Assembly (NCBI GenBank): GCA_903813345.2
Contig: CAIIXF020000001.1
Coordinates: 8,060,001 to 8,124,000 of the forward strand
Source: Owenia fusiformis
Taxonomy: Eukaryota
DNA length: 64,000 bases
Reading direction: 5' to 3'
Below the pieces are notes generated by a model. That model had not been told where the DNA came from. It did no database searches and saw nothing but the letters and a program-made list of their open reading frames with translations. The position numbers and the translations under genes are program-made. Below, piece by piece: positions 4,796 to 39,985 of the stretch (position 1 is the stretch's first letter; every line of letters begins with the position of its first letter).

Positions 4796-6357
4796 TAATT
4801 AAAGTCTCACACTTATTCATTCACCATTCCACGAATGCCGAATGGTGTTTATATTACTGCCAAACCTGTGTTGATTAACCAATTGTTACAGTGTATGATT
4901 ATAAGAAAAGGTATGTCAAAATATCAACTGTTTGAAATGTATTTGTTTAGCAGGGAGGGGTTGGAATTTTAAATTATTACTCTGTAGATATCCCAGTATT
5001 GAGATTATCTTTGGAAGAAAAGTTATAATTGTGATTGAAAAGCAAATGAACAATGAAATCACATACATTTTCTATAGTTGATATTTAGGCATAGTCCTTA
5101 GTCTAAGACTATACAGATAAATAAATAACTGTATAGAAAATTGCAGTGTTCTAATAAATCAAGTATGTAGTCATTAGATAAAGGTGATTTCCATTTCCAC
5201 AGCAATCAAAATAAGCAGTTCACTCATTCTTACATCAACTCATTTTAACTCATTTATTATTCGAATCTAGTAAATAAATTAAAAGTTTAATGAGATTTTC
5301 TTAAGAGTGGAGGTCACCTCATATCATAGAGATATATTATGGACAGTATAGCTGGTAGAGAATATCAGGAGGTTTTAATGCCGGAAGCTTGCTAGATAAG
5401 TAGTGACACATTGGGTTTATAACCTACTATTTTATGTACTGTATAATACTTTTGTAAATCAATGCTTACGTGAGGAGGTACAGTTTGACACTAAGGGAAA
5501 TGTAACATCTGCTGTATGCAACATTGTTATAATGGAGGTAGCAACATTGTTAATATTGAATACCTGTAATCTAAATGAAAATAATATAATATAAAATAAA
5601 GTGTCATGAGACATATTTCTGCTTTATCTTGTTTTTGATTTCAACTTCTGGAAAACACATTTTGATGAACTAACAGACTAAGGAAAATGGTTTTCAGAAA
5701 CCATCTTCAAAAATGAAACTGAAACTAGTAGTTTGAGATTTGAACAATCACACTTTAAGTTTTGACGTTGGGGAATTTCAACAATATACACCGCAGATGC
5801 TGTTGTCCATATCGACAGGAATTATTTATTAAATTCTTTACACGTTTCTTACAAGAATAAACACTAGCGCTGTGTTACATTTTGCAAGAATACAGTTCTT
5901 GTTCATATGTTGTATACAATGTTCAATTTGACCAAATGTCCGTTGGTTGCTTTAACATACCATCAAATACATGATATTTTTAAGTGATGCAACAATGGTT
6001 TTGAGCCTATACTTCAGGGGAGAAAGATCAAAACGAAAACAAATCTCCAACATTTTGGAAAATAACATCTGCAGTCTATGTTTTCTGGCATCTCAATGTC
6101 TGGTTCAATATATGGGTGCTACTACTGGATAAGTTTTAAATGATGTCATTGATTTTTTTGTACATTAATGAACACATTTTAAATTGTACCAAAACTGTTC
6201 AACATTATGTTTGTTTTTTTTGTTTGTTTATTATTGATATTCAACATTATACATGTGTGTAAATATGCAAAAATCAGAAACGAGTTTTGTAAATAAGTTT
6301 ATATCTGTAACTGAAGCCGAGAAATGAAATTTCAAAATTATCCCAGAATTCAGTATT

Positions 6358-6404
6358 CTCAGTCGACAATACACTCGAATAGAGCTTTATATTGTTGACG
6401 TCAT
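6358..6404 (-). promoter_or_regulatory. SECIS element (type II) of the selenoprotein M-like gene
   Basis: Minus strand reads ATGAC-GTCAACAATAT-AAA-GCTC-TATTC-GAGT-GTATTGTCGAC-TGAG: AUGA/GA quartet, 11-bp helix II, unpaired AAA and an apical mini-helix. It lies downstream of the selenoprotein CDS on the same strand. AATAAA on the - strand at 6227-6232 and 5825-5830. Confidence 0.9.
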
Positions 6405-7608
6405 TATTGGGCAATATGAAAATATCATTCAATACTTCATATACAGATATCAGCTAGCCTTGCCCAAGTCGGTCTCCTTTACTATCTGATTTCTATTATG
6501 ACCGCCTTGTACCAAAGAGAAAGCCACGTGCTTTACCGACTCAATGTTTATGTCGGTAAAATTTGACCAATCAACGACGGCCCTGCAGCGTTAGCTCATT
6601 ATTATGCGAGGTCAAAAACAAGTACACTTTTCGTCGGGACTTTTCACGAACAAATCTTGCATGAATTCACGGACGTCAAGTAAGTTTCTGGCGAAAGCCG
6701 GAGCATAGATTATTTAGAGGACTGGAAACCAGAATGACATACCTTTTTATTTCCCGAATCTCGCCTGAAATTAGCTCATCTTGGTGACTGTAACCTGTAT
6801 ATCTGTATTAATAGAGTCTTTTTGTATCGCATCTGCCTCAATTTTAAAGTTTAATTGGTATCTTTAATATGATTTCACTGTTTTTGTGGACTGGTACGAT
6901 TAAGCCAAGCAAATGGCAGCTGATCTGTTCAAAGTACTTTTAGTACTAATTATCGCAAATGACAATAATTTTGGAAACAAAATTATACTAAATAGATTAC
7001 CTTAAGCATCTAAGGTAAGTAAAACTAGATGAACAACTGAGTCAATAGTGAGAAATAGGCCAAAATGAACTGCCAGAATTGAAATAGACTGCCATCTTGT
7101 TTCCAGTCCTCTAAATAATCTATGCTCCAGCTTTCGCCAGAAACGTACTTGACGTCCGTGCATGAATTCATCATGAAAATACAAATATTTTATCAGATAA
7201 ATATCAATCAGAGTTAATTAAGTGGATGCCAGACATCGATCGGTAACCGGAGGTTAGAAGATTTCAACAATAAACGTTGAAAGGATCGCTGAATTCAAAT
7301 GAACATGTAGGCTGAGATTCAATTACTGATCGACGACTACATGACCCGCTACATTGGACTAGGTCTTGCATTTTCATCGCGAGATCAGTTTTAAATCTAT
7401 TGCATGATTTAATTTATATTAATGACTCTTACATTCCCTATGTACATTTAATTACATAATATATTGTAACTCTAAAGAAACGGTCGCGATCGATCAGATC
7501 ATTGAATTTCAAGTCGTAGACGGGAAGATCGTTTTGCTGTGCAGCTCAACCTGATAACGTTTTGATTGGTCAATCAGCCTGAAGTCACACGTCGTGTCCA
7601 CGCGTATA

Positions 7609-10154
7609 GGGTTAACCCAACCAATTGTTATAACATGCGTATTCCCATACAAACGATCTGTCTTCCAGAGAAAACTAAGATTTGTGGAGATGTTTTGCTA
7701 TCATTCCATCATACCCCAGTATGTCCTCTGTCAGTGAAAAAAGTTTGAATCAAAACTCCCCACGAAAATCAAAAGATCTCACCTGTTGAAGACGCCATCT
7801 ATAGAAAATGTCAAAAAATGTCATTCTGATTTTGACAGATGGAGGCAGGTCAAAAAAGTCAAATTTTTTAAAGAAAATGCACCTTAATCACATCAAATCA
7901 TGTCTCAGAGTTGGTCCATACATACACCTTTTCATTCATGTACTTACCAAAATCCAACCACTGGTGATGCTAATGTAATTACAATAATTGGACTATATTT
8001 TTGTTTTTATAATGCCATCTATTCGTCTTCCCACTCGGCGGAAGGATCTAATGGTTGAGTGTCCCCTAGTAGTGACCCATCCTTTAAGTAACAATTGTAA
8101 TTTCCTCCAAAATGTAACCCCAAGTTGTTTTCTAGTAAAATAATACAAACCGCAAGCAGATTCGACTATTTTTTCCAGATATATGAATGATTAAAGTTAC
8201 CCACCTCCTTTCTGCAATTAGATGTTTTCCTGGGATATTGACTAAAATTGTAACCTATGGCTAGATGTGTTGGGAGGTGTCTAGTATGAGCTGGGGAGGT
8301 AGTACAGAGCTGAATGAGCTATATCTGGAAAGCACATTTTGCCTAGAATCAATTTTTGTAATTTAAAGAAATAGTCAATTAATATCTCTTATTTATGCGC
8401 ATATTTAAATAGCACGGGTAGATTTTTGCAAAAAAATGCCTATTCGACACTTTTGGGAAATAGTACAGGCCATCGTGTCATTAAACTTTGTCAAATGATA
8501 GAACAATTCATGTGTTATCAACTACATGAACTAATAGTAATCATTATTATTGCTTCTGAATGTTTACAGAGAAATATTTAGTATGGAGGATACAGAAAAA
8601 TTGGTCATTTTCTCCAATTGTTGTTCTACCCTGGGGAATATTCATCAAAGAAAGCCAAAACAACACATATTTCCAATTATAGGTCTCCCAATTGATAAAT
8701 GATCTCTCTGTACACTGTATTTGATTACTTAGGGTTAAGTCAAGGTTAGGGTTAGGGGTTAGGGTTAGGCTTGGGCTTAGGGTTAGGCTATAGATAGAGC
8801 TAGGGGTAGTGTTGGGGTTAGGGTTAGGCTCTGGCTTAGGGTTAGGCTATAGTTAGGGTTAGGGGTAGTGTTGGGGTTAGGGTTAGGGGCTAGGGTTAGG
8901 CTCTGGCTTAGGGTTAGGCTATAGTTAGGGTTAGGGGTAATGTTGAGGTTAGAGTAAGGGGTTAGGGTTAGGCTCTGGCTTAGGGTTAGGCTATAGTTAG
9001 GGTTAGGGGTAGTGTTGGGGTTATGGTTAGGGGTTAGGCTCTGGCTTAGGGTTAGGCTGTAGTTAGGGTTAGGGATAGTGTTGGGGTTAGGGTTAGGGGT
9101 TGGGGTTAGGCTCTGGCTTAGGGTTAGACTATAGTTAGGGTTAGGGGTAGTGTTGGGGTTAGGGTTAGGGGTTGGGGTTAGGCTTAGGGTTAGGCTATAG
9201 TTAGGATTAGAGATAGTGTTGGGGTTAGGGTAAGGTCATGGCCAATGATTTAGCCTTCCAGAGCAAAATTTGTGAAAATTCCAATAAAAATCATGGAAAC
9301 AGTGGAGAAATATGACCAAACTAACACAAAGTTGACTCCTGGTTGGAGCCTATGACGGATGTGTTGGGAGATGTCTAGTTTGAGCTGGGGAGGTATTACA
9401 GAGCTGAATGAGCTATATCTGGAAAGCACATTTTGCCTAGAATCATTTTTTGTGATTAAGAAAAATAATCAATAAATTTCTCTAATTTATTCACATATTT
9501 AAATAACACGGGGTAAATTTTTTGCGGAAAAATGCTTATTCAGCACTTTTTGGGATAAGCATGGACCATAGTGACATGAAACTCTGTCAAACACATTGAG
9601 AGAGCTGAAATGAATGAAAGTTCCAATAAAAACTGGAAATAGTTGAGAAATATGACCAAATTAAAAAAAAGTGGTACTCCAGAATGGGCGATAATAGGGT
9701 TAACCCAACCAATTGTTATAACATGCGTATTCCCATACAAACGATCTGTCTTCCAGAGAAAACTAAGATTTGTGGAGATGTTTTGCTATCATTCCATCAT
9801 ACCCCAGTATGTCCTCTGTCAGTGAAAAAAGTTTGAATCAAAACTCCCCACGAAAATCAAAAGATCTCACCTGTTGAAGACGCCATCTATAGAAAATGTC
9901 AAAAAATGTCATTCTGATTTTGACAGATGGAGGCAGGTCAAAAAAGTCAAATTTTTTAAAGAAAATGCACCTTAATCACATCAAATCATGTCTCAGAGTT
10001 GGTCCATACATACACCTTTTCATTCATGTACTTACCAAAATCCAACCACTGGTGATGCTAATGTAATTACAATAATTGGACTATATTTTTGTTTTTATAA
10101 TGCCATCTATTCGTCTTCCCACTCGGCGGAAGGATCTAATGGTTGAGTGTCCCC
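7609..10154. mobile_element. Nested composite element with two identical 458-bp long terminal direct repeats (7609-8066, 9697-10154); KolobokP-like architecture, non-autonomous
   Basis: The two copies are identical by eye. Each has imperfect short TIRs (gggttaacccaacca / revcomp ggggacactcaacca) and no TG...CA ends. Flanks are ata...ata. The 1.6-kb interior has a diverged ~240-bp direct repeat (~8264-8495 / ~9358-9590) and no coding ORF. Confidence 0.75.
8729..9236 (+). repeat. Degenerate (TTAGGG)n-derived minisatellite, ~60-75-bp higher-order unit
   Basis: Repeating ggctctggcttagggttaggctatagttagggttaggggtagtgttggggttaggg; G-rich on the + strand. Confidence 0.95.
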
Positions 10155-10537
10155 ATATCTGTTAATCAATAAGGTTTCGCGATACCCCTGATAGCGTAGG
10201 TATTATGGAAATCTCGAAACCGTTGAATATCTCAGCATAATAGCAGCGGAGATGTATTGCATTGTACAAGGCGGTAATAATTCAAGATCAGATAAGTAAA
10301 AAATACCGACTTGGGCAAGGCTAATATCAGCTTGTACAATGCAAAATGTCCCACCAATTTGCAGTTTTGGAGATCACTGAGGCTTCTATATAAAGTGGTG
10401 TCTTGTAGGCTAGAAAGCTTTTTTAGACAATTCTCCTATGGTTATGGATATTGTTATATCATCTAAAAACTTAATCGAATGGAGAACAATCCATGTCTTA
10501 TATTGCTATAAGGGAGATAACTGGTAAACTTCTCATG

Positions 10538-13309
10538 CTATAATTCATCCTTCTGTCCCTTTGGTTTGTAAGGTCCTGTGCGGTATGCTTCTGGGACAAC
10601 CTCGTTCGCTCGTTTTTTCTTATAAAATCCTTGATTCAACAATGCAGCGTTACATTCCTCTTGATCTAAGGGCACCAAATCTACTCTCTGTTGGAACAAA
10701 TAAATAAGATGAACAATGATGGGTGTGAGGTATGTTGTCCTTATGCCAACAGTTTTGGAAATACGAATACAGTATACAATTGTTGACCTCTCCAGAGGTC
10801 AACCGGCAAAATTGTATACCGAGACTGTAAACCGAGAAACTACTGTTGACAGAGACCGAAGGTCGAGGTCAACAGTAGTTTCAAGGTTTACAGTCGAGGT
10901 ATATGATTTTGACGGTTGACCGAATGGAGAGGTCTACAATTGTTTTGTTAGTCAGAAGAAACTAATAATACACATATAGACGACAGTCATCAATCATGGC
11001 TTCATTTCACAATCTTTTCTTCGAACCACGCCAGCAATAATTTTTTAAGAAAATTTGAAGACAGTGGTAGCTAGACTCTCTGTTTTCGGCACATAACTGC
11101 GAACTCACTACGTTTGTATTTGTATTTTTGCTATACTCGTCGTCTAGCAAAGTCAAAATATCACTTTCATCACGTTTACAAAATGTCCGTCTACACTTTT
11201 TTCTGTAAACATTGTGACGTCATATTCCCCATAATTCACAAGTGTAGTACAGTAACATACGCGGTCAATAATATGATATCCCATGATGCACAGGTGAGGT
11301 ACAGGCAAAAATGTTGACCGCTAATTGACCAATCAGATGCGAGTATTTACACTGAGGTACTAACAATAGAACCTGTGTACTGTGAACACCTGGAGTCACA
11401 AATATATGTTCAAGGTGGGTAGGTGTTACTACAGAGAGGGTAATCTATACAGAAGTCAGTAGAATATGTAGAGGAAGGATGTCCACTTGAGACGGGTTCA
11501 CTAGAGAAAGGTATTCAGTAAGACAGATTTTACGGTAAAATAAGGAAAGAATGAATTGTTGATATACTTATCTTTCCAGGGCCAAAATCTATTTTTGACT
11601 AAACATTTTCATATACCTCCTCCCCAAAAGATATTAACTAATCCACACTTCCTCAACTATTGGACACCATTCCCAAAACAATAATTGTTTTTCTTTCAAG
11701 GTTAAAACAAATGACTAATACAATAATATCTCCATTTGTAGTAAACTTGTCACTGAGTAAAAGTGTTCACATTGAGAGGTGTTCATATATGGAAGGTATG
11801 AATACATGGCGACTCAAACTACTTACTAAATCATACTTCTCCAATTATACTTATTCAAAAATATCATCAAATTATGGACACAATTCTGAATAAATAACAT
11901 GATTAAAACAATTATTAGGTGTAAATCATAGCATATACGTAGTTTACAAGGATGGACTTTATTGATACATTAACACCTTTGCATTGTATGGGCGGCATAT
12001 TTCCCATGCTACTTAAAAATATCAAGCTATTCAGAGTAACATTTATATTACCTTAACAACATGACCTTCTTTGTTGAAAAACACCAGCTCTGGTTCTTTG
12101 TGCATAACTTCATGAAACTTAACATTATGGCTTGATCAAGTGAAAGGAAAGTAACATTATTGTTGTTCAAATTATTTAATATTTCAAATACTTTTAATTA
12201 TTTGAATTTCTTTAACATTTCAAATACTTTGAATTTTAAACATGAACTTGTATACCCTGAATGAATAGAAAACATTTGAAAAGATTTTATTAAAAGAAAA
12301 TACAGAATAAAGGCTAATAGGTGTAGACCATGGATGTAAATGGTTATTTACTGATTTGTTGTTTGCTATTTAAAGGATACTACATAGGGAGGTCATCCTC
12401 AAGGAAGTCCTTCACCTCTGGGTACCTGTTTAATGTTCATTTAGTACAGCTCTGGAATAAAAAACCAGCAATCTATTGAAATTGATTTAATATCCATGGA
12501 AATACATGTATTAATCTATAGTTTTAACCACTAATTTTCAAGTTTAAACTTTACAAATTGTATTTATTGTGATAAAATAAAGTGCTGTAAATCAAAGCAT
12601 TTGCTTAAATCATTTATCAAGAGCATGCAGTTAAGTGAACTGACCTTCAGATCGGCCTTTATTAACCATAACCTTGAATATATTTGTGATTGCAACCGTA
12701 TTTGTTGAAATAAATCCCCGCCATCTAGTCATTGTCTTAATTTGTTTCATATAGGCCTATTTTTTATTATTAGTTATGAAGCAAATGGCATATAGTAAAA
12801 TATTGACTTTGTCGAAAAAATATATTGGCAATTAATATTCAAAAGAGCAAGTTCGAGTTGATGATTTTCCATCTTGATGATAGAAATGGTAGGATACAGC
12901 CTTTTGAATTGACAATATCGGATCTTTTCACTGATTTCAAACCAAATCCATGAGTGATTTGTTACACATAAGGTCAAAACATGAAATAAGGCTACTTGAT
13001 ATGAATAAAACAAAATAAAATAAATAAAAAATATAGTAAACTATTTCGGTAAAAATACTTTGCAATCATATATTGGTCACTTTTATCGTTTCGGCTTTAT
13101 CATGTACAGTCAATTTTACATGGACCTTTGCTGATATTATTTGTATTAAAATAGTACTTTGAGCAATATAAACGTTATATCATATACAATGGCATTACCG
13201 CAACCATAGCACCAACGACATCACGGTCTCTCTTCCTTGCTCCATCGGCGTTATGAATAAGCGTTCCTATTAGCACAATCCCAACCAACAGGCTGGAAGG
13301 GCGCATCAT
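10538..13309 (-). CDS. SELENOM: Selenoprotein M-like (SelM/Sep15 thioredoxin-like fold), 136 aa; exons 13309-13199, 12451-12381, 12130-12052, 10687-10538
   Basis: Spliced translation: MMRPSSLLVGIVLIGTLIHNADGARKRDRDVVGAMVA-SCTKUTLNRYPEVKDFLEDDLPMY-HNVKFHEVMHKEPELVFFNKEGHVVK-RVDLVPLDQEECNAALLNQGFYKKKRANEVVPEAYRTGPYKPKGQKDEL*. It has a signal peptide, CxxU with TGA at 12439-12437, LNR.PEVK.F / YHN / PELV / GFY motifs like SelM, and C-terminal KDEL. Splice phases are consistent and a SECIS is present. Confidence 0.95.
10776..11365. mobile_element. Palindrome-bearing interspersed repeat in SelM intron 3 (168-bp hairpin 10776-10943); right boundary approximate
   Basis: acaattgttgacctctcca...tggagaggtctacaattgt long imperfect palindrome centred on gaccgaaggtc; similar hairpins occur at ~37.0 kb and 47.3-48.3 kb. 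Confidence 0.6.
12131..12380 (-). other. Probable U12-type (minor spliceosome) GT-AG intron, intron 2 of the SelM-like gene
   Basis: Donor GTATCCTTT (12380-12372) matches the U12 consensus; branch-like TTCCTTTCAC lies ~10 nt before the AG, with no pyrimidine tract directly at the AG. Confidence 0.75.
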
Positions 13310-19678: not shown

Positions 19679-20479
19679 TCAATTCATGAAGAACTTTATA
19701 ATCTGAACGGTAACCCACAAATAATCAGTTTTGTGATGTAAAGTTGTAAGTCCAAAATCAAGCAACTGCTGGGGCACGACGAGATTCTCACTGTCCCACT
19801 TGAACAATGCTTCAAGAACAGCGGGATGGTGGGAGTAGTCAGGGTGACCGCAAAAACATAGAATATGCTTCCCTAAGATGAACCCCTGGTACTGTGTTGA
19901 ACGACTGGAGCCAATGCTACATGCGGCGTCTGGCAACGACACTAAAGCATCGTTATGGTGGTACAGGAGGCTGAATGTGTCGCGCGTCGTCTTAAAGTAC
20001 TCCTTAGCTACGTCAGTTAGGGGAACAGTGACTCTGGAAATCTCGCTGCCTTTTGGATTCTTCTCGACGTGTCCTCCAAGAGCTTTCGCAATTATCTGGT
20101 GTCCGAATGAAATGCCGACCATTTTTCTATTCTCCGATTGAAGCGTTTTTACGAATGTCAACAATGCATCGATCCAGGGGTCTCCGTCATAAACACCACT
20201 GAGTGACCCCGATATGATAAACCCTGCGTAGATGTCCAATTTCTCAGGGTACACTCCCTTCTTGACATCAAACGACTTAATTTTGATTTTCGGCAGCTTC
20301 GTATTCTCGTCACCTGGGCTTTCAGTTTTCAGCGTCTCCAAAGGTAGCGAAGTGACGTAATCAAACATGCTTTGTGCCATATCGGGGTATCCCCCAGAGA
20401 GGAAGTATACTTGTTCTGGAAGATATTCCTTTAAATCCTCACATTGTAGGTAGCCGATGGTGAGCACATTATCATCCAT
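19679..20479 (-). CDS. Class I glutamine amidotransferase-like / gamma-glutamyl peptidase-like protein, intronless CDS, 266 aa
   Basis: Motifs GFIISGS, PWI..L, nucleophile elbow GISFGHQIIAKALGG and GHPD; family consensus is GICFGHQ and GHPE. Confidence 0.9.
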   Translation of the reverse strand: MDDNVLTIGYLQCEDLKEYLPEQVYFLSGGYPDMAQSMFDYVTSLPLETLKTESPGDENTKLPKIKIKSFDVKKGVYPEKLDIYAGFIISGSLSGVYDGDPWIDALLTFVKTLQSENRKMVGISFGHQIIAKALGGHVEKNPKGSEISRVTVPLTDVAKEYFKTTRDTFSLLYHHNDALVSLPDAACSIGSSRSTQYQGFILGKHILCFCGHPDYSHHPAVLEALFKWDSENLVVPQQLLDFGLTTLHHKTDYLWVTVQIIKFFMN

Positions 20480-21012
20480 AGTAACTACAACTGCTCTTGG
20501 ACAGTTGTTTCCAGTTTGTAAGTTCTAAACGTTATTTCACTAGATGTGTAGTACTGTAAGTACATGTGTAGTGTAGGTTATACGAGATAACATAGAACAG
20601 ATGTTATTGCGAGGTTGATGGTTTGCAGTCATCACATACTTCAAAATAATACAGTAACACAAGCTTTCGTATCTGTACTTCAGTATGCATGCACCTCGTG
20701 TTTTCAAGGTGATTAATAGCCGCGCATTGACTATCATATTGGAGAGTTTAAGCTAGTACATACAATCGAAACGGCAACGTATACGTATAAATTGCCTATA
20801 TACAAATACACGTTCCTTCCTCACTTAAATAGCCGTTCGGGCTTCAGGGTTTGTTTACACTAACACGAGTATAATGATTCCCAGCGTTGAGACCAACGCG
20901 AAATTTGGAATTTCGCGTTCTAAACACGAAACTCTGAAGCTGAACGGGTATCTGAAGAAAACTAATAAGCGCTGGTTTGGTTTTATTTCGCGATAAATTC
21001 ATTTTGCCAATA

Positions 21013-22455: not shown

Positions 22456-25436
22456 CTAAAATTCTTTATTTTGAAGCCGTGTGGTATCTTTATTTATTGG
22501 TTGTTGTTGTTTCACATTTTCTGTCATCTTTGGTACAGCAGGTTCGACAGCATTGTTGTATGTTATGAGTATGTGGCTGTGTGAGATAGGGAGTCGATTC
22601 TCTCGACTGTTCGATATCCCATAAGTAATGTAGATAACTAATCCTGAAACCAAATGTTTAGTACATCATTTTTGAGAAACTACTATATTTGGATATATTT
22701 GGATATTTATACTAATTAAAAAAATCAATGCGGGGAACGCTGGATGACTATAAACATCAATAAAAATTGATTCGTAATCGTAAACATATTCGACGTCAGC
22801 CGACTGTGTGTAGAAGGGTCAACTGCAATATCAGGCTATAAGTGTTTTAATTGAAAATCAAGCAATCGAACCCACAATTTAATCTTCATCAACATGAATT
22901 TTTTTTTGATTCGTTCTATTGTCTATTACATTACATTGTGATGTGGATAATTTCACCACTAGCCTGATAAGGGTTTAATGGTACCTAAAGCACTAAATGT
23001 CAATAATAGACAATCGATGGTCACTGTCTTACCAATTGTCCCCCATATTCCAAGTCTTATCCATGCCACTGGTGGCATTTGTACCACCAACAAAATGTTG
23101 ATCAACATACTCAGTGACTCAAGCCACGGAGATAGAGGTACCTAAAAGAAAATATACACATATACAGGTTGGACAAAATAGGATTGTATAACATGGGGTC
23201 AATGGAAAAAACACGGAATAAACGTACACGATCAACAGGAGGGTGTTAGTATTGTGTTCGGATACACACGCTTGATTGTGGAGGAGAGGTGTGAAGTGTA
23301 GAATGAGGGTTGGATATAGGGTAATAAGAGCTTAAAGCAAGACTACAGGGCAATTTATAATATGTAATTTATAGAAAAATGCACTTACTACAAATGTTTT
23401 GAAGCTTGTGTTTTTCTCGTGAGCAGCAACAGTCAATAAGCATAAGATTATTCCCGAGACGAAGAAAATTAGAAATCCGACACTCCACCAATATCCTGCC
23501 AAGATTTCACGACTGAAGTAAACGACCATAACAGAAAAGCCTGCCATGAGTGCTGCCATTAAACCAACAGCTAAAGCTGAAAAATTATGTTGATTTTATA
23601 TTTCACAAGGCATTGACATGCAAAATGTCACCGCCTACCATTTGTTACTGACGCCGAACTCCCACCGCCGTTCGCCAGAACGCCGAACACCGTCCACAAA
23701 AATGTTGGAAACTTCTAGTATAACAATATCTCACCACTTGAAGTGGTTACATAACGTTGATTTGTACATTTAAAACCTAATTTCATAAACGCTGCTAAGT
23801 TCTGTAATAATTATATCGTCCTTAAAGTGGACATCGCAATGACAACATGTAGATATATAGAAATCCGGAAAACAGATACAAACCGATTAAACAGTTCTCA
23901 TTTTTTGACATTCCAGATATAAGTATAAACGACTGACGTACACATGGCAGACAATGGGATTATAACATTCTGCAAAATTTGACTATGACAAATTGTGAAA
24001 TTGAGCAATATTCACTTACAAACAGCATGGCCAGGTTCACAGTCCATGAGAATTGTGAATGGCCATCCATCAAGACCTCGTTTAACTCTTCCTATTCCAG
24101 ATATAGGATCTGTTATAACGATCCTCTTCTTTTCATCTGGATCCTCGTCATTTGGATCTTCTAGTGTCATCTTCACGGTCATCTTCTCTAAGGGAATGTA
24201 CCTTGCAACTATTGTGTTTGCTGCTACAAGCGTGAAGACAATAAGTGTTCCGAGAGAGAGTAAATTTGCCAAAAGTTCGATATCAAATATAAACGCTAGT
24301 ATTGCAGCTATTGTCCCAAATGTTGCAGTGGCCACGATAGGAGTCTGCATCTTAGGATGTGTCGTAGAGAGGAATCGAAAAAGTAATCCATCCGATGCCA
24401 TGGCATATGTTAACCTAGCTATACCGTACATTCTTCCAATTAAAGCATTCATCATGCTGACCAAAGAAATTGGCGCCAAGATCCACATCATCCACGAGAT
24501 TCCGCGGGTAATCATTGCGTTCACAAACGGTGATCTTCTGTCGATCATTTCATAAGGCAATATTAAGGTTAGAGCTGTAGATGCTAATGTATGTACAATT
24601 ACAACAACCGCCATGCTAATAAATGTAGCTTTTGGTAAATTTATATGTGGATCAATGGTTTCTTCTGTTGCAGTCGCCATATTATAAAAGCCACCGTATA
24701 ACACAAACAGCATTCCGGCTCCTGATAAAACTCCATGAAATCCAAAAGGAAGGAATCCACCATTGTCCTCGTTTACCCAATGTTTCCCTTCGGAGAAAGT
24801 TAAGAAAAATCCTATAACAAATACTAGAGCCAAAATGTTGAACCCGACAAAGAAATTATTAAGTAGTTTGAACGATACATTGACAACAAGGCACGCCACG
24901 AGAGAGGCAATGATGACTGACACAATAGCAAGGAAATCAGGATAATTCGCTAACCAAGGCATATTAACAACTCCAATGTTCTTTTGAATACCAGTAGCTA
25001 TTGCACCGCTAGATATAGTGTTAAATGTAGCACTCCAGCCCTTAGCTATAGCTGCTACGGCCAGCAAGTGTTCCATGATCATTACCCAGCCGACCATGAA
25101 TGCCCAAAGCTCCCCATTCATAACATAAGTATATGTATATGCAGCACCAGCACTAGGGAATCTGGATCCCAATTCGGCATAACAAATCGCCGACAGTAGA
25201 GCGGCGAATCCAGCTAATAAATATGCCAGTACGGCCCCGGGTCCAGCAACTTGTGATATGACGACACCAGTCACTGCGTACAGACCTCCACCAACAGAAT
25301 TTCCTATGCCCATAAACGACAAATCCCAAACATCGAGGCATCGTTTTAATGGCGTAATATCATCAGTTGCAAGTTTAGTTCTATTAAGTTTTTCACACAG
25401 TGCTCTGGTGCAGACTTTTGATTTAGGTTTCTCCAT
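22456..25436 (-). CDS. SLC7 cationic amino acid transporter-like (CAT/APC family) paralogue A, 633 aa; exons 25436-24020, 23576-23389, 23141-23033, 22643-22456
   Basis: Motifs LKRCL...GIG, AGP, CYAELGSRFP.AG.AYTY, GGFLPFG, MASDGLLF, and C-terminal VPL.PW...S.LIN / YGI.NS. GT-AG joins keep frame (1902 nt). Confidence 0.93.
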
Positions 25437-28268
25437 CTTGTGTTGTGCTTTATAACACTACCAGCAGCATTCAGAATCACAACCTGAATCAGAGAAGACA
25501 ATTTTTCATACATATTTTGAATGTTTTGAATAGCTAAAACTAGTTTTCTATCAATTATATATCTATATTTATACTCATGACTGATAGATTGATAAAAAAG
25601 TAACTTGTATAAATTAATGGTCATCGGTATTTCACAATCACTGTTCCAAACAGTACTGCCTTTGCGAGACTCTATGTACTTCATTACAGTAGTTTTATTT
25701 CATCATGTCAATATAAAACTGTTTGTGTTTATAAAAGATTAGATATGACAAAGAATGGATTAGAGATTACCGAAAACAAGTTGTGAAGCATTTGAAAGGT
25801 CACATGTCGAGTACAGTTTCATACAAAATTAACGTAAATATTCATATCCGATCTTAATCAATTGAGTAACAAAATGGATATATAAAAAAAAGCAAGTTAG
25901 ACACAATAATTTTCTGTTTTGTAAAAATATACACATGGCCCTGTTCAAATAAAACCACCCTGAACTGAATCAGTAGATTTACTTATAAAACAACAAAATG
26001 TGAGCTTTAAACTTCACAAATGTAGATTCGCCAAACTGTAAAACGCCTAAAAGTTTAAATTGCAAGCACATATTTTTTAAATTTTGTCTCAACTTAATTT
26101 CCTACAATCATATGTTAACGTACTTTATCTATTTAATGCGTTTTGAAATACATCATTTCAGTTTTTTCAAATTGAAAGTGTTGAAGAAGTCATATCGTAA
26201 GACTATAGTTTTTATTTTACGACCCTCTACTACTAGATAGTACCTTACCTTCTACTGATACATTACATTCAACATGAACTCTAAAGTATCCAACGTCTTA
26301 TCGCTGGATATGCTTCTATTCAAAATTGGTCAAAAAGTAATCTTTTCACGATTATGAATACACTTCCTTTGGTCTGTTTTTTTTTTATTCACTTCTATTC
26401 ATAATCGCTGAAACTAGGCTTTGGATCAATACATACTATTAAGAAGAAAATGTTAACTGCTATTGGTGTCTCTTCACAAGGACACGTTTTAAATTTCCAG
26501 CAACATCGATCATCAATTATTGCAATAGTTTCAAATTCAGGTTCGTTTTGCTAAATCTTAACCATCTCGCAATTGTCACTGCCAGGCTTTTAATGGTTTA
26601 GTGACCACGATGAATGTATTGTCCAGCTTATGACAAAAACAGCAAAAATACATTTTAAAGGTACTATGTAGCGCACTCTAATATACTCAAACTGCAACCC
26701 CCAATTGTGAATGCAAACAGTGAATGCGAATTAAATGTAACTTAAGATTATATGTGAGATTTAAGCTAGTTCAAAATTTTCAAAATAATTCATAATGCAT
26801 TGATATTGTATTGTAAAATCATATTCGTTCTAGCAGGTGTAGATTGAGAAAAGATTGCTTTTACTTTATTGCGAATAAGTCTCTACCAGCATATTCATTG
26901 TAGAACAAACTCAAAGATAGTTATTAACGTTTTCAAACAATATAATACAAACGTGCAGCTGCTGTTGAATAATGATTTGTATTTTATGCTGGATCATTTA
27001 CGTTTGGGATGCTTGGGGTCACTCTGTTCGTTTTCTGGTAACTTTTTCAAACACTTTTTTCGGTGTTTTCCTGTTAATTTTGAAGGTTAAAAACCTAACT
27101 TCTCAATGTCTTCAAGTTTGATAACGAGCCATACCTGTTATTTTCTAGTGTGAGTATAGGGCCAACCTCACTCAAGTTTTGCAGATTTTTTTTTATTTTA
27201 ATCAGTTTAAATGTGTTTTTCAATCAAACAGTAAATATGAAGTCTTATATGGTTGTTATATTTAATCTCAAACACCTCACACATAATGATATAAGCAAAT
27301 CTTGGCTACGCCCTTGAGTATTATCTTGGATTACCAAGGAATGGCGTTTTCATACTAGTAATTGAAAATCAAACTGGTGAGGAGTATGCCTGAGTATTAC
27401 ATGGAAATATGATAGCATCAAATCTTTTTGGAGAGAGTCATATCATTTCATTGGTCAGAATCCTATCAATTTCATCAGAAAATCAGTTGTATACAACTGT
27501 AAGACTGTCTTTTTAGGTCTTCACTACTACCATACTGTTTTCTTCATAGAACACCTTTTGCACATTGAGAACGCGGCTGACAATGCTATTGCCCAGCCCC
27601 CCCCCAAATAAATTGTACAATCAGCTTTACAATATAATACGTTAGCGTCATAAGATAATGTAAATGAGTCAGTCAAAAAGCGGGTCAGTGAATCCACTTA
27701 TTTTTGAAATTGTAAAAGTGTATTAACTAATATTTAAAAAAAGTTACTTACCGTACTAAGTGTAGCTTATGTTTTATCAATGTATGGCCATCACGATTTT
27801 CTTCAGTCAAACATACGAGACTTTGCCGAACTTCATGGTTTCTATTCACCTTATTGATCGACATGCAAAATTTATATACAGTAGGTCACTGCAATGTCTC
27901 ACCACTCTTGGCTTATAATCCGTTTCTGTAATTCAGTATAACTGAGTTGAAACTTATCAGTTCTGCTCTGTTGAATTTTGGTCGTCCTAATATTTAATCG
28001 TCGTGAAGTTACTTATGTGTTGACCACGGGGAACTTCATCTCACATCTAAAATAGATGAAACGCTAGTTAGGTCGCCACATGTACAGACCACTTGCTTGA
28101 ATATTTAGTTTTATAAAAAATGTCGGCCTATACGCATTTTAAGTGAAGTATTTGATTTATACATGCTTTAAAAGGATTGTGTGAAGCATTCTTAGTTGTA
28201 TCAATAAAAATCTACCGGAGTTGAAGTAGTGAATACCAAGCAGCGAAGCGATTATGTGTGTATATACA

Positions 28269-30519: not shown

Positions 30520-32257
30520 ATTGTATTTATATCTGTACATAAAATTTTGACCAGAGGTCATGCAATCATATGATAAGTGGTTTCGTCAAACCGTTAAAAC
30601 TGCCTTTTTGGCAAAAGATATGTTGTCCTTAGAAAACATAAAAAAGCCTCGCCACAGTGAACATCTTTTGATTGCCAATGATCCCATACTGGATCTGAAC
30701 GGCTGAGGTTGTCCACGCAAAAGGATGGGGTGGCCAGTGACCGATGACTGTAGTTTCCGTATCATTCAAACACTTCTGTTACTGAGTTTCTTTTTCTGAT
30801 CAAGTTTTTTATTAATCTTCCGATTCATTTATCATTTTAATCCATATCGTATGTAATGAAATTTCAAGTTTTACCAGTTAACAATTGTATTGAACTTGTT
30901 GAACAAAGAATGGTAACCAGCATTCCTCTTTTGACACATAACAAAATTAAACATAAGGGTTTGTGTGGACTTACCAATGTCTGTATTGTATTTACAATTG
31001 CGTGTAAAACTAGGTAAAAAGTAGAAAATGAATTTTATTTTGAAATAGACTATTTTATTTAACGTGTTCACAGAAAATGTATTGAAAATATATCAATTGC
31101 AAGACATTATAGAAACATGTACTTGCATAGGTTAGTTTCAATCAATCGCTCTATTTACACAACACACATGATGAATAAATTCAGGTGAGTAACCATTGCG
31201 ATGATTGTCGTTTCCGTTTCATTCACAAAATTATCCAAGCTGGCAGAAAAGCTTACGTACGCTTTTTGAATTTGCTCTCTGTTGATTGGTCAGTTGAATG
31301 GTCATTATCTTTGTGCTTATTTTGGAATACGTAATTTAGCATTGAATTATACACTAGGGTTCGATTTTGAACACAACGTTTCAGCTGTATTTGACATTCT
31401 TCTTCGCGTATATTTCCCGGTATATTTGCACAATCGAAAAATGTCCTTTTGACAAATTGCAAACATTTTCATGAATATCTTTCTAAACTGACGATTATCA
31501 TGAAATGCATAACCGTAACATCACTTCCTAGTCTTCATTCCCGGAAGTCGAGACCCGATGTGAATGTGAAACAAGAAGCAAGTTCTCAGGTATTAACATG
31601 GGTTGAATTCTATGTTTAATATATTGAATATATGAATTCTATGTTTAATATATATGACTTGCATGAATTGTAAGCGTTGGAACTTGCTATTAGTATGAAC
31701 AATATGCAGAAACATGGTTTTAAGATTGGGAGATTGTTTTTTTGGTATAAAACGACGGTACGGACCAATGGAAATTTGTCCTACTTGACGCGATGCTTGT
31801 GGGACATATTCATGGAAATGACCATTTCGCGCGTCGGATTGAATGCAATTGAATGTTGCATGCGTATTTCAAAATTGAATGCTTCATTTCAGTTGCGACA
31901 ATCAAAAATAAAAGGTAAATTCCATATAGAGTGATTCCCCAAATATTCGTTTGAAGTTCCAACAATTTGAGATATAGGTGGTTTATAATTTAGGCTACTA
32001 TATACGATCCCAATTGGCCAAGAGAAAAACAAAAATCAATTCCACCATCTTGGAATATTTTGCTGGGATATTACGATAACTATAGTAACTGTAACGGTTA
32101 TTCCCCAATCACTGTATATACTAAACCTACAATAAGCAGTTGTATTTTAATATTGAAAAGACGTCGATCAGGTACAAGGAAATACATGAGCAATATTTAG
32201 TGAATGCAAACGGATTTATATCTCTTGATCGGATTTAACAACAAACATAGAGAAAAC

Positions 32258-35200
32258 ATGTCAATGAAAAACTGCCTGAACGAGAATGTGCCAAAGTTGG
32301 TCAAGAAGCTGACCCGAACCAAAACGCTCGATAGTGACGCAATGGACACACCATTAAAACGATCTCTTGGAACATTGGATATCTCTCTAATTGGCATTGG
32401 GTCAATGGTCGGGTCGGGTATATTTGTCATGTCGGGGACCGTGGTAAAAAATATTGCTGGACCTGCTGCTGTGGTGTCTTTCCTCATAGCCGGTCTTGCT
32501 GCTGTTCTGGCAGCCTTCTGTTATGCTGAATTTGCCTCTCGTGTCTCCAAGACTGGCAGTGCATACACGTATACCTATATTATCATAGGAGAGCTCATGG
32601 CCTTCATTATAGGTTGGGATGTACTATTAGAACTTACCATATCATTGGCTGCCCTGGGTAGGGCATTCAGTGGAACACTTGATTCATTATTTGCTGATGC
32701 AATAAAGAACGGGACGCAGAATGCAATTGGAAAGATGCAACTTGACTGGCTAAGTTACACCCCCGATTTTGTAGCAGCTCTTGTCGTTTTGATTATAACG
32801 GCTGTTGTTGCATTGGGAACCAGTATTTCCACCAAATATAATAAGATATTTTGTTCAGTGAATATACTATGCTTAATCGCTATATTTGGCGTTGCTTTCT
32901 ATTTTGCTGATTTCGACAACTGGGAGAATAAGGAACATGGTGGGTTTTTGCCGTACGGTGTGTCTGGTGTCATATCAGGCGCATCTGTATTCTTTTACTC
33001 ATATGTTGGTTTTGAGCAATTGGCATCGGCCGCAGAGGAGGCTATAGACCCTGCCAAGTCCATGCCTAGAGCATGTTGTATTGCAGTAGCAACAGCTATA
33101 ACACTCTACTGTGTAGGAGGATCTGCTTTGACGTTAATGTTGCCTTTTTACGAAGTGGACCCATCAAGAGCATTTTCAAGTGCTTTTGATACAAAAGGAC
33201 TTCCATGGCTAGAAAAAGTTATTGCAGTAGTAATATTGATGTTCATAAGTGTAACGTTACTCAATTCTTGCTATGGTTTATCACGCAACGTGTATGCTAT
33301 GGCCTCCGACGGACTTCTGTTTAAATTTCTTGCCAAGGTTAACCATAGAACGCAGACTCCTATTTTTGCTATTGCTGTGTTTGGTATTTTATCGTCTGTA
33401 TTGGCCCTTCTATTTGATATACAGTCGTTGGCAGAGCTGGTGTCAATTGGGAGCTTACAAGCATACATTTTTGTCGCAATAAGCATAATAATCATTCGGT
33501 ATCAACCAATGAATAAATGTCAATTTGAATTAAAACAAGAAGACAAAAGCATAGACGGCGAATCCAAACAAATATCTGCACTCGAATCAACACAATTACT
33601 AAGACTCAAGAAACTAGAGGACAGAGGTAATATTGGTCAACTGAAAGAACGTTGGAAAGGATTGTACATTTTAAAAAACACGGAGCCTGGCAAGGCTGTA
33701 TTGTGTTCAACCATTCTAATGAGTGTCTCCATGTTGAGCGTCAGTGCATTGGTTTTACTAGGAACTGAGTATCTTAGAACAGTACAATGGTGGGCTGTGA
33801 TGCTATTGGTGATATTTACGACCCTTATTGTCGTCTGCTACTTGATTATCATAGTCCATGAACAAAACACCAGGTTTCTCACATATCAGGTAACATTTCT
33901 ATTTAAGGTGCCATGGTAGTTAACAGGACTTCTGTTTTGAGTTCTAGTTAACTAGTTCCAGGATCACAATGTACATGGTCAGAATGACCCTAAACATGAT
34001 GAAATAACTTTTTCAGCCCTCTGAAAATGTGACTGAAAAATAGATAAAAGTAGGAGCTTAGGAAAGGTCACTGAACAGAATATTTTGATTATTTCAGAAA
34101 ATGTGCCCAATATATTGCTCTAGATGATCCAACTTTTGAAAATTTGATATCATTCGTAGAAAAAGAGAAAAAATGAAAAACTGAATTGAAAAGCGATCTA
34201 TTTTCCTTTTTATGACGCCATTTTTGTTTCAGACAATTTTCTAAAATTTCAAAGATTGTATCATTAAACCTTATATAAAACCTTATATAAAATAAACTAT
34301 GCTCCAAATCAATATCGAAATTTTGAACATAGCGACTCTGAGTTTTATGGATCGTGGCCTTTTGAAAATGTTGATAGGTTCTTGGCCTTTTTAGCTCACA
34401 TGGTGAGCTTTTGCAATCACTCACTTGTCCGTCTGTCTGTCCGTCCGTCCGTCCGTCCGTCTGTCCGTCCGTCAACAATAGTGGCACGTTTTAAAACCTC
34501 TGTCGATAGGATTCCTGTTTTAAGTTATTTCTGTTCAACATCAATACAGAAAACCCCCCTATGACTCCTGGTTCAAAAGCTCGCCTATTTTCAAAATGGC
34601 CGTCACTTTTGTCTCGCGAAATTCACTTTTAGCCCATTTCCTAGCTAACCTCTGTCGATAGGATTCCTGTTTAAATTTATTTCTGTTCAACACCAATACA
34701 GAAAACCCCCCTATGACTCCTGGTTCAAAAGCTCGCCTATTTTCAAAATGGCCGTCACTTTTGTCTCGCGGAATTCACTTTTGGCCCATTTCCTAGCTTT
34801 ACAAATAATTTCAGGTGTCCTACATTGTAAAAATCCATGTCAATGTAAAGATTAGATATATGAAATAATTTTGTTACAAAAAATCAGGGAAAAATTGTAT
34901 CCATTTTTTTATTTTCAGCCATTTTAGTTAACATTGATTTGTCTATCTGACTCGCGAAATCCACTTTCTGTCAATAACAGTGGCACGTTTTAAAACCTCT
35001 GTCGATAGGATTCCTGTTTTAAGTTATTTCTGTTCAACATGAATTCAGAAAACTCCCCTATGACTCCTGGTTCAAAAGCTCGCCTATTTTCAAAATGGCC
35101 GCCATTTTTGTCTCGCGAAATTCACTTTTGACCGATTTCCTAGCTTTACAAATAATTTCAAGTGTCCTACATTGTAGAAATCCATTACAAAGTAAAGAAT

Positions 35201-39410: not shown

Positions 39411-39985
39411 TAAGATGCAATAATAAAAAAGATGGTTGCAGTTGGAGAAATTGATACTTTGAGAATTAAGATACACGGTTTGGATTCATTCATTACCAAC
39501 TTTGGTACTTCTCATTCAGACACCCTTTTCAGACTTGTTTAAGAAAACACGAGGTTTAGAAAAATAGCGAGAACAGTCTCTAAACTGAAATGGAATGCAT
39601 ACTAATATTTATATCCGCAAGCATTGAAGAAAAAAGTATCAATTGATGTTTGTGTAATTTGTACCAAAAAGTGCAATGGAGAAAATGACAGGACAAACAT
39701 CCTCCGAACACAGGGGTCTAGACTTCATTTCACTAGCACTCTGTTCTTCCAACAGAGCGGATAATATCCAGTCCTCTGCGTTTGGAGGATGCAGGACCAT
39801 CAAAATCAGAAGTTAGTCAGAGCAATATGCTCTTACTGGTTTTTCAATATGCATTTGAAATGTAGCTATTTACATCACAAAAAATATTTTTTCTTCTTTT
39901 CACAACCTTTATTTTACTAAACAGGACGTTACGGATCCTGTCTGGATCTTTTTTTCTGGAGATTTCTATCATAGGGTACATAGGG

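What the first reader, a model, noticed from the sequence alone, without database searches (positions are those of the whole stretch)
6358..13309. Hidden selenoprotein M-like gene: UGA-recoded CTKU motif, KDEL and a SECIS
Seen: four short minus-strand exons, none present in the ORF track, splice in frame into a 136-aa protein. It has a signal peptide, an in-frame TGA (12439-12437) in S-C-T-K-U-T-L-N-R, C-terminal KDEL, and a canonical type II SECIS at 6404-6358. Known: SelM/Sep15 proteins are ER thioredoxin-like selenoproteins; vertebrate SelM uses CGGU, and mammalian SelM SECIS has CC where this one has AAA. Inference: automated annotation would probably truncate or miss this gene, and the CTKU dipeptide could shift redox properties or mark a divergent paralogue.
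Basis: partly seen in the sequence, partly recalled or inferred. Interest (0 to 1): 0.85.

Follow-up and report, generated by a model that had tools for sequence, protein, structure and literature searches.

The report
Divergent selenoprotein M gene, transposon-split 3'UTR
This is a real but ordinary selenoprotein M gene of an invertebrate, unusual only in having a lysine next to its selenocysteine and a 3.9-kb transposon wedged between its stop codon and the RNA signal that lets UGA be read as selenocysteine.

Summary
Four minus-strand exons with GT..AG borders splice into a 136-aa reading frame. It has one in-frame TGA (12439-12437) and a C-terminal KDEL.

Exons 2 and 3 match Pfam Sep15_SelM in collinear order. 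Homologues were retrieved with exon 4 alone, yet they align with the whole spliced protein. The best is Patella vulgata selenoprotein M, 48% identity, E 1.7e-35. A profile of seven homologues scores 150.6 bits without gaps. The TGA falls on the family's Sec/Cys column.

A SECIS-like hairpin at 6404-6359 is the only match to a SECIS descriptor on either strand of the 64 kb. Rfam scores it below threshold.

Two things are new. A 3,869-bp non-coding element (6455-10323) with about 60-nt inverted ends and a perfect 8-bp target duplication explains the 4.1-kb gap between stop and SECIS. Before the insertion the gap was 256 nt. The protein is also an outlier: Lys replaces a Gly found in all 77 properly aligned homologues, and 7 of 24 conserved columns differ.

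It is a new member of a known family. Expression is untested.

The parts
13199..13309 (-). Exon 1 coding part: ATG at 13309-13307, 37 codons covering the signal-peptide-like N-terminus and the start of the mature protein. Donor GT at 13198-13197.
   Evidence: The junction with exon 2 aligns without a gap to homologues.
12381..12451 (-). Exon 2 (71 nt): the C-T-K-U redox motif and the start of helix alpha1. Acceptor AG at 12453-12452, donor GT at 12380-12379.
   Evidence: Pfam PF08806 Sep15_SelM at 26.5 bits (cut-off 26), profile positions 5-26. Aligns to mouse SelM 2a2p residues 22-42 (weak, E 0.37).
12437..12439 (-). In-frame TGA, read as selenocysteine (codon 42).
   Evidence: It sits in the same alignment column as the Cys (59 sequences) or Trp (19 sequences, consistent with TGA read as Trp by gene callers) of homologues.
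12052..12130 (-). Exon 3 (79 nt), phase 2: the Y-H-N-V...P-E-L-V segment.
   Evidence: Pfam PF08806 at 14 bits, E 0.052, profile 29-53, collinear with exon 2. 59 tblastn hits from homologues fall in the 12000-12099 bin, inside this exon.
10538..10687 (-). Exon 4 coding part: 49 codons ending in K-D-E-L, then TAG (10540-10538).
   Evidence: 31 hits at E<=0.001 among 1.84 billion representatives. The only PDB hit is mouse SelM 2a2p residues 71-116, E 0.012.
10324..10537 (-). Proximal 3'UTR (214 nt), ending in the 8-bp target-site copy GCTGATAT (10331-10324).
6455..10323 (.). 3,869-bp non-coding insertion. It has imperfect ~60-nt terminal inverted repeats (10323-10264 and 6455-6512) and is flanked by a perfect 8-bp duplication. 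Inside are a 461-bp perfect direct repeat, a TTAGGG-like satellite and a nested inverted-repeat element.
   Evidence: It contains 12 ORFs of at least 60 aa; the longest (150 aa) is the satellite read as protein. No other copy occurs in the window.
6447..6454 (-). Second copy of the 8-bp target-site duplication GCTGATAT.
6347..6416 (-). SECIS element, type 2. AUGA at 6404-6401, 12 nt to the AAA bulge, a 4-bp mini-stem, and UGA on the 3' side ending at 6359.
6227..6232 (-). AATAAA, the first poly(A) hexamer after the SECIS and the likely 3' end signal of the gene.

Best explanation
This is a selenoprotein M (SELENOM/SelM) gene of an invertebrate, probably a mollusc or other lophotrochozoan.

Inferred mechanism, from what is known of the family. 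The four exons are spliced into an mRNA whose codon 42 is UGA. The type 2 SECIS hairpin in the 3'UTR recruits SBP2 and eEFSec-Sec-tRNA, so UGA is read as selenocysteine. The N-terminal signal peptide takes the protein into the ER, and the C-terminal KDEL keeps it there. The surface CxxU motif at the beta1/alpha1 junction of a minimal thioredoxin-like fold acts as a thiol/selenol oxidoreductase.

Shown here:
- the gene structure;
- family membership;
- the position of the TGA on the family's Sec column;
- the KDEL end;
- the SECIS-like hairpin.

Inferred, not shown: expression, Sec insertion, ER residence and enzymatic activity.

Two peculiarities were found.
1. A 3.9-kb non-autonomous DNA-transposon-like element, hAT-like by its 8-bp target duplication, has inserted into the 3'UTR. 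It moves the SECIS from 256 nt to 4,133 nt behind the stop and adds six poly(A) hexamers in between. Sec decoding now depends on transcripts running through the element.
2. The protein is one of the most divergent of the sampled family, with Lys instead of the otherwise constant Gly directly before Sec.

The confidence given is for the identification as a SelM-family selenoprotein gene with its SECIS. That this allele is still expressed and decoded is less certain, about 0.65.
For: Gene model:
- GT..AG at all three introns, 136-codon frame, single TGA.

Family membership:
- PF08806 hits of exons 2 and 3 are in collinear order.
- Exon 4 alone retrieved 31 proteins. The full-length ones also match exons 1-3.
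- blastp of the spliced protein against the 146 retrieved homologues gave 146 hits at E<=1e-3. Best were P0036 (named 'selenoprotein M [Patella vulgata]'), 48% over 112 aa, E 1.7e-35, and P0024, 42% over 131 aa covering residues 1-130.
- hmmsearch with a profile of 7 homologues gave 150.6 bits over residues 23-136 with no gap at any exon junction.
- All 7 of those homologues match PF08806.
- Their profile hits mouse SelM 2a2p at 1.2e-36 and fly Sep15 2a4h at only 1.1e-5.

Sec column:
- Of 79 homologues with an aligned motif, 59 have C, 19 have W, one has S and one has V. The last two are the misaligned rows.

SECIS:
- It is the sole descriptor match in the window, on the right strand and downstream of the stop.
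- It is the only SECIS_1 alignment in the 3' region, with a type 2 fold.

Insertion:
- The inverted ends align over ~60 nt. Their first 19 nt are identical and occur only at these two sites.

Divergence:
- 7 of 24 columns with at least 85% consensus differ. The median is 1 among 84 homologues, and only one (P0026) has more.
- The end branch is 1.02 against a median of 0.27.
- The gene is sister to the two Patella sequences, SH-aLRT 87, not starred.
Against: - Rfam scores the SECIS at 18.8 bits, well under the gathering score of 35, with E 6.1. Its folding energy is not exceptional (z -1.48; 15 of 200 shuffles fold at least as well).
- No transcript evidence could be consulted.
- Six poly(A) hexamers lie between stop and SECIS. 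They could end the mRNA before the SECIS, in which case UGA would terminate after 41 codons.
- The long branch, the seven replaced conserved residues and the transposon in the UTR would also fit a copy under relaxed constraint.
- No close orthologue (above 50% identity) was found, so conservation of the Lys, of the frame downstream of the TGA at DNA level, and of the SECIS could not be tested.
- The signal peptide was judged by eye only.
- The consensus used was derived from the homologues themselves, which flatters them relative to the window.
Confidence: 0.9

Rival explanations
1. A SelM copy on its way to inactivation. The transposon insertion uncouples the SECIS from the coding region through premature polyadenylation inside the element. 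UGA then acts as a stop in exon 2, the mRNA is degraded by nonsense-mediated decay, and the sequence divergence reflects relaxed constraint. A canonical C-x-G-U SelM elsewhere in the genome would do the work.
For: - The 3,869-bp insertion carries 6 AATAAA/ATTAAA hexamers on the sense strand between stop and SECIS.
- 7 of 24 conserved columns are changed, including the Gly before Sec, the G-A of the G-A-x-P-E-L motif and a conserved Glu.
- The end branch is about four times the median.
Against: - The frame is intact over four exons, with no stop other than the Sec TGA and no frameshift.
- All six splice dinucleotides are canonical.
- 17 of 24 conserved columns are kept.
- The SECIS core, the AAA and 9 of 10 helix II pairs are intact.
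- The target duplication is still perfect (8 of 8), so the insertion is probably young compared with the protein's divergence and cannot have caused it.
- From recall, not checked here: SECIS elements are known to work several kb from the UGA, as in type 2 deiodinase.
Confidence: 0.2
2. A lineage-specific, functionally shifted SelM paralogue. The Thr-Lys dipeptide and the other basic replacements would alter the redox potential or substrate range of the CxxU centre, alongside a conventional SelM elsewhere in the genome.
For: - Lys at x2 was seen in 0 of 79 homologues.
- Three of the seven deviations from consensus introduce Lys: G41K, A72K and E87K.
- The branch is long but the gene is intact.
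Against: - No second SelM was found in the 64 kb. With 146 queries, tblastn hits cluster on the three exons.
- The only other hit below E 0.01 is a 22-aa stretch at 39898-39963, E 6.5e-4 for one of 146 queries. It scores E 3.9 with the window's own protein.
- The rest of the genome could not be searched.
- Nothing here measures redox properties.
- The fly Sep15 chain in PDB 2a4h has Thr, not Gly, before its second Cys (alignment). Gly is therefore not indispensable in the superfamily.
Confidence: 0.2
3. Not a selenoprotein. The TGA is a true stop and the similarity downstream is a chance or a relic, or the SECIS-like hairpin is a chance match.
For: The Rfam score is sub-threshold. The descriptor finds 0.5 matches per simulated window.
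Against: - Homology continues without a gap through and after the TGA, across two further exons, to the KDEL end (150.6 bits).
- Homologues carry Cys, or TGA-derived Trp, in exactly that column.
- The single descriptor match in 128 kb of searched strand lies on the right strand. After removal of the insertion it is 256 nt behind the stop.
Confidence: 0.03

Closest known systems
Selenoprotein M (SELENOM/SelM); solved structure mouse SelM, PDB 2a2p; annotated mollusc members such as Patella vulgata 'selenoprotein M'
   Same: - Sep15/SelM thioredoxin-like domain (PF08806).
- CxxU with Sec encoded by UGA in the same column.
- N-terminal hydrophobic leader and a C-terminal ER-retrieval-type tetrapeptide.
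- Small size: 136 aa here, 128-168 aa for the full-length relatives compared.
- SECIS in the 3'UTR.
   Different: - Thr-Lys instead of the family's x-Gly dipeptide. Vertebrates have CGGU (PMC10668967, passages read).
- H-K replaces the conserved G-A before P-E-L-V.
- 7 of 24 conserved columns differ.
- Identity to any retrieved homologue is at most 50%.
- The 3'UTR is interrupted by a 3.9-kb element.
Sep15 / SELENOF (fly homologue PDB 2a4h)
   Same: Same Pfam domain and fold family, also ER-resident.
   Different: From recall, Sep15 has a CxU (or CxC) motif, an N-terminal Cys-rich UGGT-binding domain and no KDEL-type end. The window protein has a CxxU spacing, only 38 residues and no Cys before the motif, and a KDEL end. 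The profile of its nearest relatives prefers SelM (1.2e-36) over Sep15 (1.1e-5).
Eukaryotic type 2 SECIS elements (Rfam RF00031 SECIS_1)
   Same: AUGA...UGA kink-turn core, helix II, an AAA bulge 12 nt after the core and an additional mini-stem. AA(A) is the usual state outside placental-mammal SelM (PMC3316567).
   Different: It scores only 18.8 bits against the Rfam model. Helix I is weak. It lies 4.1 kb from the stop codon because of the insertion.
Non-autonomous hAT-like DNA transposons
   Same: Terminal inverted repeats and an 8-bp target-site duplication. That this length is typical of hAT is recalled, not tested.
   Different: - The TIRs are long (~60 nt) and imperfect.
- No transposase-sized ORF is present.
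- No second copy occurs in the window.
- The superfamily assignment rests on TSD length alone.

Membership tests
Selenoprotein M (SELENOM) | Sep15/SelM thioredoxin-like redox domain (Pfam PF08806) | tested here: met
   Exon 2 scores 26.5 bits (cut-off 26), profile 5-26. Exon 3 scores 14 bits, profile 29-53. The spliced protein scores 150.6 bits against a profile of 7 homologues, all of which match PF08806. The spliced protein itself could not be given to the Pfam tool.
Selenoprotein M (SELENOM) | CxxU motif with Sec encoded by in-frame UGA at the family's redox column | tested here: met
   C39-T-K-U42. The column holds C in 59 and W (consistent with TGA) in 19 of 79 aligned homologues.
Selenoprotein M (SELENOM) | Closer to SelM than to Sep15/SELENOF: CxxU rather than CxU spacing, no N-terminal Cys-rich domain | tested here: met
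   The profile of nearest relatives hits 2a2p at 1.2e-36 and 2a4h at 1.1e-5. The only PDB hit of exon 4 is 2a2p. There are no Cys residues in the 38 residues before the motif.
Selenoprotein M (SELENOM) | Family-typical (not defining) Gly immediately before Sec (CGGU in vertebrates, C-x-G-U/C generally) | tested here: not met
   Lys in the window. Gly in 77 of 79 homologues; the other two are misaligned N-termini.
Selenoprotein M (SELENOM) | N-terminal ER signal peptide | tested here: inconclusive
   By inspection: a basic start, a 13-residue hydrophobic core and A-D-G before the likely cleavage site. Homologues have hydrophobic N-termini in the same place. No signal-peptide predictor was available.
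Selenoprotein M (SELENOM) | C-terminal ER-retention-type tetrapeptide | tested here: met
   KDEL then TAG. Homologues end in RDEL, KEEL, xxEL or xxDL.
Selenoprotein M (SELENOM) | Functional SECIS in the 3'UTR of the same transcript | tested here: inconclusive
   There is a unique descriptor match on the right strand, and an Rfam alignment over the full model but below threshold. Whether the transcript reaches it through the 3.9-kb insertion is unknown.
Selenoprotein M (SELENOM) | Actual Sec incorporation and oxidoreductase activity | not testable with these tools
   Needs 75Se labelling, mass spectrometry or ribosome profiling, and enzyme assays.
Eukaryotic SECIS, type 2 | AUGA / GA non-Watson-Crick quartet, helix II, unpaired AAR at fixed distance, apical mini-stem | tested here: met
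   AUGA at 6404-6401; 9 of 10 pairs in helix II in the Rfam alignment; AAA 12 nt after AUGA; UGA on the 3' side. The MFE fold shows the AAA bulge and a 4-bp mini-stem.
Eukaryotic SECIS, type 2 | Rfam RF00031 gathering score | tested here: not met
   18.8 bits against 35. No hit at gathering thresholds in the whole window.
hAT-like non-autonomous DNA transposon | Terminal inverted repeats flanked by an 8-bp target-site duplication | tested here: met
   TIRs at 10323-10264 and 6455-6512. GCTGATAT on both sides. The 19-nt TIR tip occurs only at these two sites; 0.01 expected by chance.
hAT-like non-autonomous DNA transposon | Transposase gene, or other copies showing mobility | tested here: not met
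   No ORF over 150 aa, and the longest is a translated satellite. ORFs were not scanned against profiles. No further copy in the window. The genome outside the window could not be searched.

The most novel reading that the evidence does not exclude
The gene may encode a working ER selenoprotein whose redox centre is C-T-K-U, a Lys beside the selenol where every other sampled SelM has Gly. Three conserved positions are changed to Lys. This would mark a functionally shifted SelM lineage or paralogue with a different redox potential or client range.

It may also still be decoded even though a recent transposon insertion has pushed its SECIS from 256 nt to 4.1 kb behind the stop. That would be a natural experiment on the distance and read-through tolerance of Sec recoding in an invertebrate.
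Probability: 0.2. Interest if true: 0.45.

Novelty: new member of a known kind. Interest (0 to 1): 0.3.

Why it matters
Selenoprotein genes are routinely lost or truncated by automatic annotation. The abstract of PMC12822975 reports that only 5-11% are well annotated in GenBank and Ensembl for vertebrates. Here, 37 of 146 retrieved SelM homologues lack everything up to the Sec column. Recording this gene correctly therefore improves the selenoproteome of its genome.

Beyond that the value is modest. SelM is known across metazoans, including molluscs (PMC3473315, table passage; Patella entries).

Two details could repay a small experiment. One is a Lys next to Sec in a family where that position is otherwise Gly. 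The other is a young transposon insertion between the stop codon and the SECIS, which makes the allele a natural test of how far, and through what sequence, a SECIS can still act.

Tried and rejected
- Rfam at gathering thresholds over the whole window found nothing.
- The search for homologous proteins with exon 4 among longer (87-2000 aa) and near-length (26-86 aa) proteins found nothing. No close relative or self-annotation is visible there.
- The search for homologous proteins with exon 2 was rejected because the query was below the 40-aa minimum. It was not pursued.
- PDB search with exon 2 gave lipid-transfer proteins ahead of SelM, all at E>0.2, which is uninformative for a 23-aa query. 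Exon 3 gave nothing.
- A second SelM in the window was looked for and rejected. That includes the weak 39898-39963 stretch that has TGC-ATT-TGA upstream.
- Other copies of the inserted element in the window: none.
- tRNA genes, for example tRNA-Sec: none in the window.
- The Atlas search with a neighbouring permease ORF gave family but no useful taxon.
- A literature search for the word CTKU found 3 unrelated papers. Searches for SelM/CGGU/mollusc, SECIS plus transposable element, and SelenoM/oyster turned up no description of a C-x-K-U SelM or of a transposon between stop and SECIS in a SelM gene among the listed titles and abstracts I saw. This is weak evidence of absence.
- No DNA of eukaryotic relatives could be fetched. 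SECIS conservation, the empty-site allele and dN/dS therefore stayed unchecked.
- The spliced protein could not be handed to the Pfam, structure-prediction or large-database tools, because they take only contiguous references. It was analysed only inside scripts.

Full report
**What is in the sequence**

On the minus strand, four short exons have canonical GT...AG borders and pyrimidine-rich acceptor tracts: 13309-13199, 12451-12381, 12130-12052 and 10687-10538. Joined inside a script, they give 411 nt, which is 136 codons plus TAG. The single internal stop is TGA at 12439-12437, in the context S-C-T-K-U-T-L-N-R. The protein ends in K-D-E-L.

The N-terminus reads as a signal peptide by inspection: a basic start, a 13-residue hydrophobic core, then A-D-G. 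No predictor was available.

**Is it a SelM gene?**

Translated alone, exon 2 reaches the Pfam cut-off for Sep15_SelM (26.5 bits against 26, profile 5-26). Exon 3 matches the next stretch (14 bits, profile 29-53). Exons 1 and 4 match nothing in Pfam on their own.

Exon 4 alone (49 aa) was searched against 1.84 billion representatives and gave 31 hits at E<=0.001. The full-length ones turned out to match exons 1-3 as well, without gaps at the exon junctions.

An alignment of seven of them (A1) served as a profile:
- It retrieved 132 proteins, of which 120 were listed. All listed ones carry PF08806. Many are named selenoprotein M, from molluscs (Patella, Bulinus), an annelid, arthropods, a holothurian, a nematode and vertebrates.
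- All 7 members match PF08806.
- The profile hits mouse SelM (2a2p) at 1.2e-36 and fly Sep15 (2a4h) at 1.1e-5.

In scripts, the spliced protein scored 150.6 bits against the A1 profile over residues 23-136, ungapped. Its best BLAST match was Patella vulgata selenoprotein M, 48% over 112 aa, E 1.7e-35. The only PDB hit of exon 4 is 2a2p residues 71-116.

tblastn with the 146 homologues against the window piles up on exons 2, 3 and 4 and nowhere else convincingly. The one other hit below E 0.01 is a 22-aa stretch at 39898-39963. It does not match the window's own protein (E 3.9), and I treat it as chance.

**The Sec codon**

The alignment held 147 rows, the window plus 146 homologues.
- 80 rows including the window have a Cys and no gap in the four motif columns.
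- 37 of the 146 homologues have no residue up to the Sec column, which is the usual truncated annotation of selenoproteins.
- The remaining homologues are gapped or non-Cys there.

In the Sec column the 79 homologues show C (59), W (19), S (1) and V (1). W is what gene callers that read TGA as Trp produce. The tools also show U as C, so Sec and Cys forms cannot be told apart among the 59.

**The redox dipeptide and overall divergence**

The first x is variable. The second is Gly in 77 of 79. The two exceptions (P0011, P0021) are mispredicted N-termini that do not really align. The window has Lys, which needs two base changes from any Gly codon.

Over 24 columns with at least 85% consensus, the window differs at 7: E37A, G41K, L47Y, G71H, A72K, E87K and L102A. 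The median among 84 homologues covering at least 21 of those columns is 1, and only one has more, with 8. The consensus comes from those same homologues, which favours them.

For the quick maximum-likelihood tree, 134 of the 147 rows passed a coverage filter. I removed 39 mostly insect rows to thin the set, leaving 95 rows. In this tree the window is sister to the two Patella sequences (SH-aLRT 87, not starred), inside a weakly supported group with Bulinus and Capitella. Its end branch is 1.02 against a median of 0.27. A lophotrochozoan, probably molluscan, origin is therefore likely but not shown.

**The SECIS**

Rfam finds nothing at gathering scores in the window. With permissive thresholds on 6000-10700, the only SECIS alignment is SECIS_1 at 6416-6347 on the minus strand. 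It covers the full model, scores 18.8 bits (gathering 35, E 6.1), and shows AUGA, 9 of 10 helix II pairs, AAA and UGA in register.

The minimum-energy fold gives helix II, a 3-nt AAA bulge and a 4-bp mini-stem, which is the type 2 layout. At -17.1 kcal/mol the z-score is only -1.48.

My own descriptor matched once on both strands of the window, at 6404-6359 on the minus strand. The mean over 100 first-order Markov simulations was 0.5, maximum 3. By my arithmetic, a chance match on the right strand within 4.3 kb downstream of the stop has a probability of about 0.02.

AA(A) rather than CC is the rule outside placental mammals (PMC3316567, passages). That contrast in the finding is therefore not noteworthy.

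**Why the SECIS is 4.1 kb away**

An inverted repeat links 10323-10264 with 6455-6512. Its 19-nt tip is identical at both ends and occurs nowhere else in the window; 0.01 matches are expected by chance. Directly outside both ends lies the same octamer, GCTGATAT, at 10331-10324 and 6454-6447.

This is the signature of a class II transposon insertion. An 8-bp duplication is typical of hAT elements, which is recalled rather than tested.

The 3,869-bp element has no long ORF. Of its 12 ORFs of at least 60 aa, the longest (150 aa) is a translated satellite. It contains:
- a 461-bp perfect direct repeat;
- a TTAGGG-like satellite;
- a nested 76-nt inverted-repeat pair.

No other copy is in the window.

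Removing the element and one octamer leaves 256 nt between the stop and AUGA, against 4,133 nt now. AATAAA follows the SECIS at 6232-6227. Six AATAAA/ATTAAA hexamers lie inside the element on the sense strand.

The reconstruction ties the SECIS to this gene much more firmly than proximity alone. It also raises the question whether transcripts of this allele still reach the SECIS.

**Mechanism**

The mechanism is inferred from the family (PMC10668967, passages; PMC2761289, passages):
- SECIS-dependent reading of UGA-42 as Sec;
- entry into the ER through the signal peptide;
- KDEL retrieval;
- thiol/selenol oxidoreductase chemistry at a surface CxxU between beta1 and alpha1.

Lys next to Sec might stabilise the selenolate or a partner thiolate. 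This is speculation.

**Rivals**

- *A copy drifting towards inactivation (0.2).* The transposon, the poly(A) hexamers and the long branch favour it. The intact frame, splice sites and SECIS, and the perfect and hence young target duplication, count against it.
- *A functionally shifted paralogue (0.2).* This is untestable without the rest of the genome.
- *Not a selenoprotein (0.03).* The gapless homology across the TGA contradicts it.

**Novelty and limits**

SelM is long known in invertebrates (PMC3473315, table passage) and is annotated in molluscs. This is a new, divergent member of a known family.

A search for 'CTKU' found only unrelated papers. Three further searches showed no description of such a motif, or of a transposon-split SelM 3'UTR, among the listings I saw.

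The following stayed unchecked:
- transcripts;
- the annotation status in the source genome (searches found no protein sharing words with exon 4, which is ambiguous);
- orthologous DNA;
- paralogues outside the window;
- a trained signal-peptide or SECISearch3 verdict.

Noticed in passing
window 7606-8066 and 9694-10154: A 461-bp direct repeat, 100% identical, spaced 2,088 bp apart, lies inside the inserted element. It could be a very recent internal duplication, LTR-like ends of a nested element, or an assembly artefact.
   Followed up: partly
window 8745-9235: A satellite built from TTAGGG-like units (GGGTTA/GGCTTA), with periods of 59, 72 and 138 nt and about 83-91% matches. It is an interstitial telomere-like array inside the element. 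Read as protein it gives the 150-aa 'ORF' at 8783-9235.
   Followed up: partly
window 6658-6733 and 7095-7170: A 76-nt inverted repeat pair, 91% complementary and 361 nt apart, looks like a MITE nested in the larger element. Target duplication was not examined.
   Followed up: no
window 24012-25457 (-) and 32204-33919 (+): Two long uninterrupted ORFs (481 and 571 aa) match amino acid permease families PF13520 and PF00324. The Atlas places the second among cationic amino acid transporters. They are divergently oriented and apparently intron-poor paralogues.
   Followed up: partly
window 19679-20524 (-) and 41471-42508 (+): A 281-aa ORF matches glutamine amidotransferase class I (PF00117, 1.4e-10). 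A 345-aa ORF matches sulfotransferase family 2 (PF03567, 6.2e-06).
   Followed up: no
window 39832-39987 (+): A short stretch resembles the F-H-N...P-x-L-x-F-F part of SelM for one of 146 queries (E 6.5e-4), with TGC-ATT-TGA 16 codons upstream. It is not similar to the window's own SelM (E 3.9), so I judged it chance.
   Followed up: yes
window 12166-12234: A 17-18-nt AT-rich tandem repeat of about 3.5 copies lies in intron 2 of the SelM gene.
   Followed up: no
literature, not the window: The listing of PMC8557442, on Penelope-like retroelements in invertebrates, shows many mentions of SECIS and selenoprotein. This may be relevant to Sec-encoding mobile elements in mollusc genomes. I did not read the paper.
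   Followed up: no
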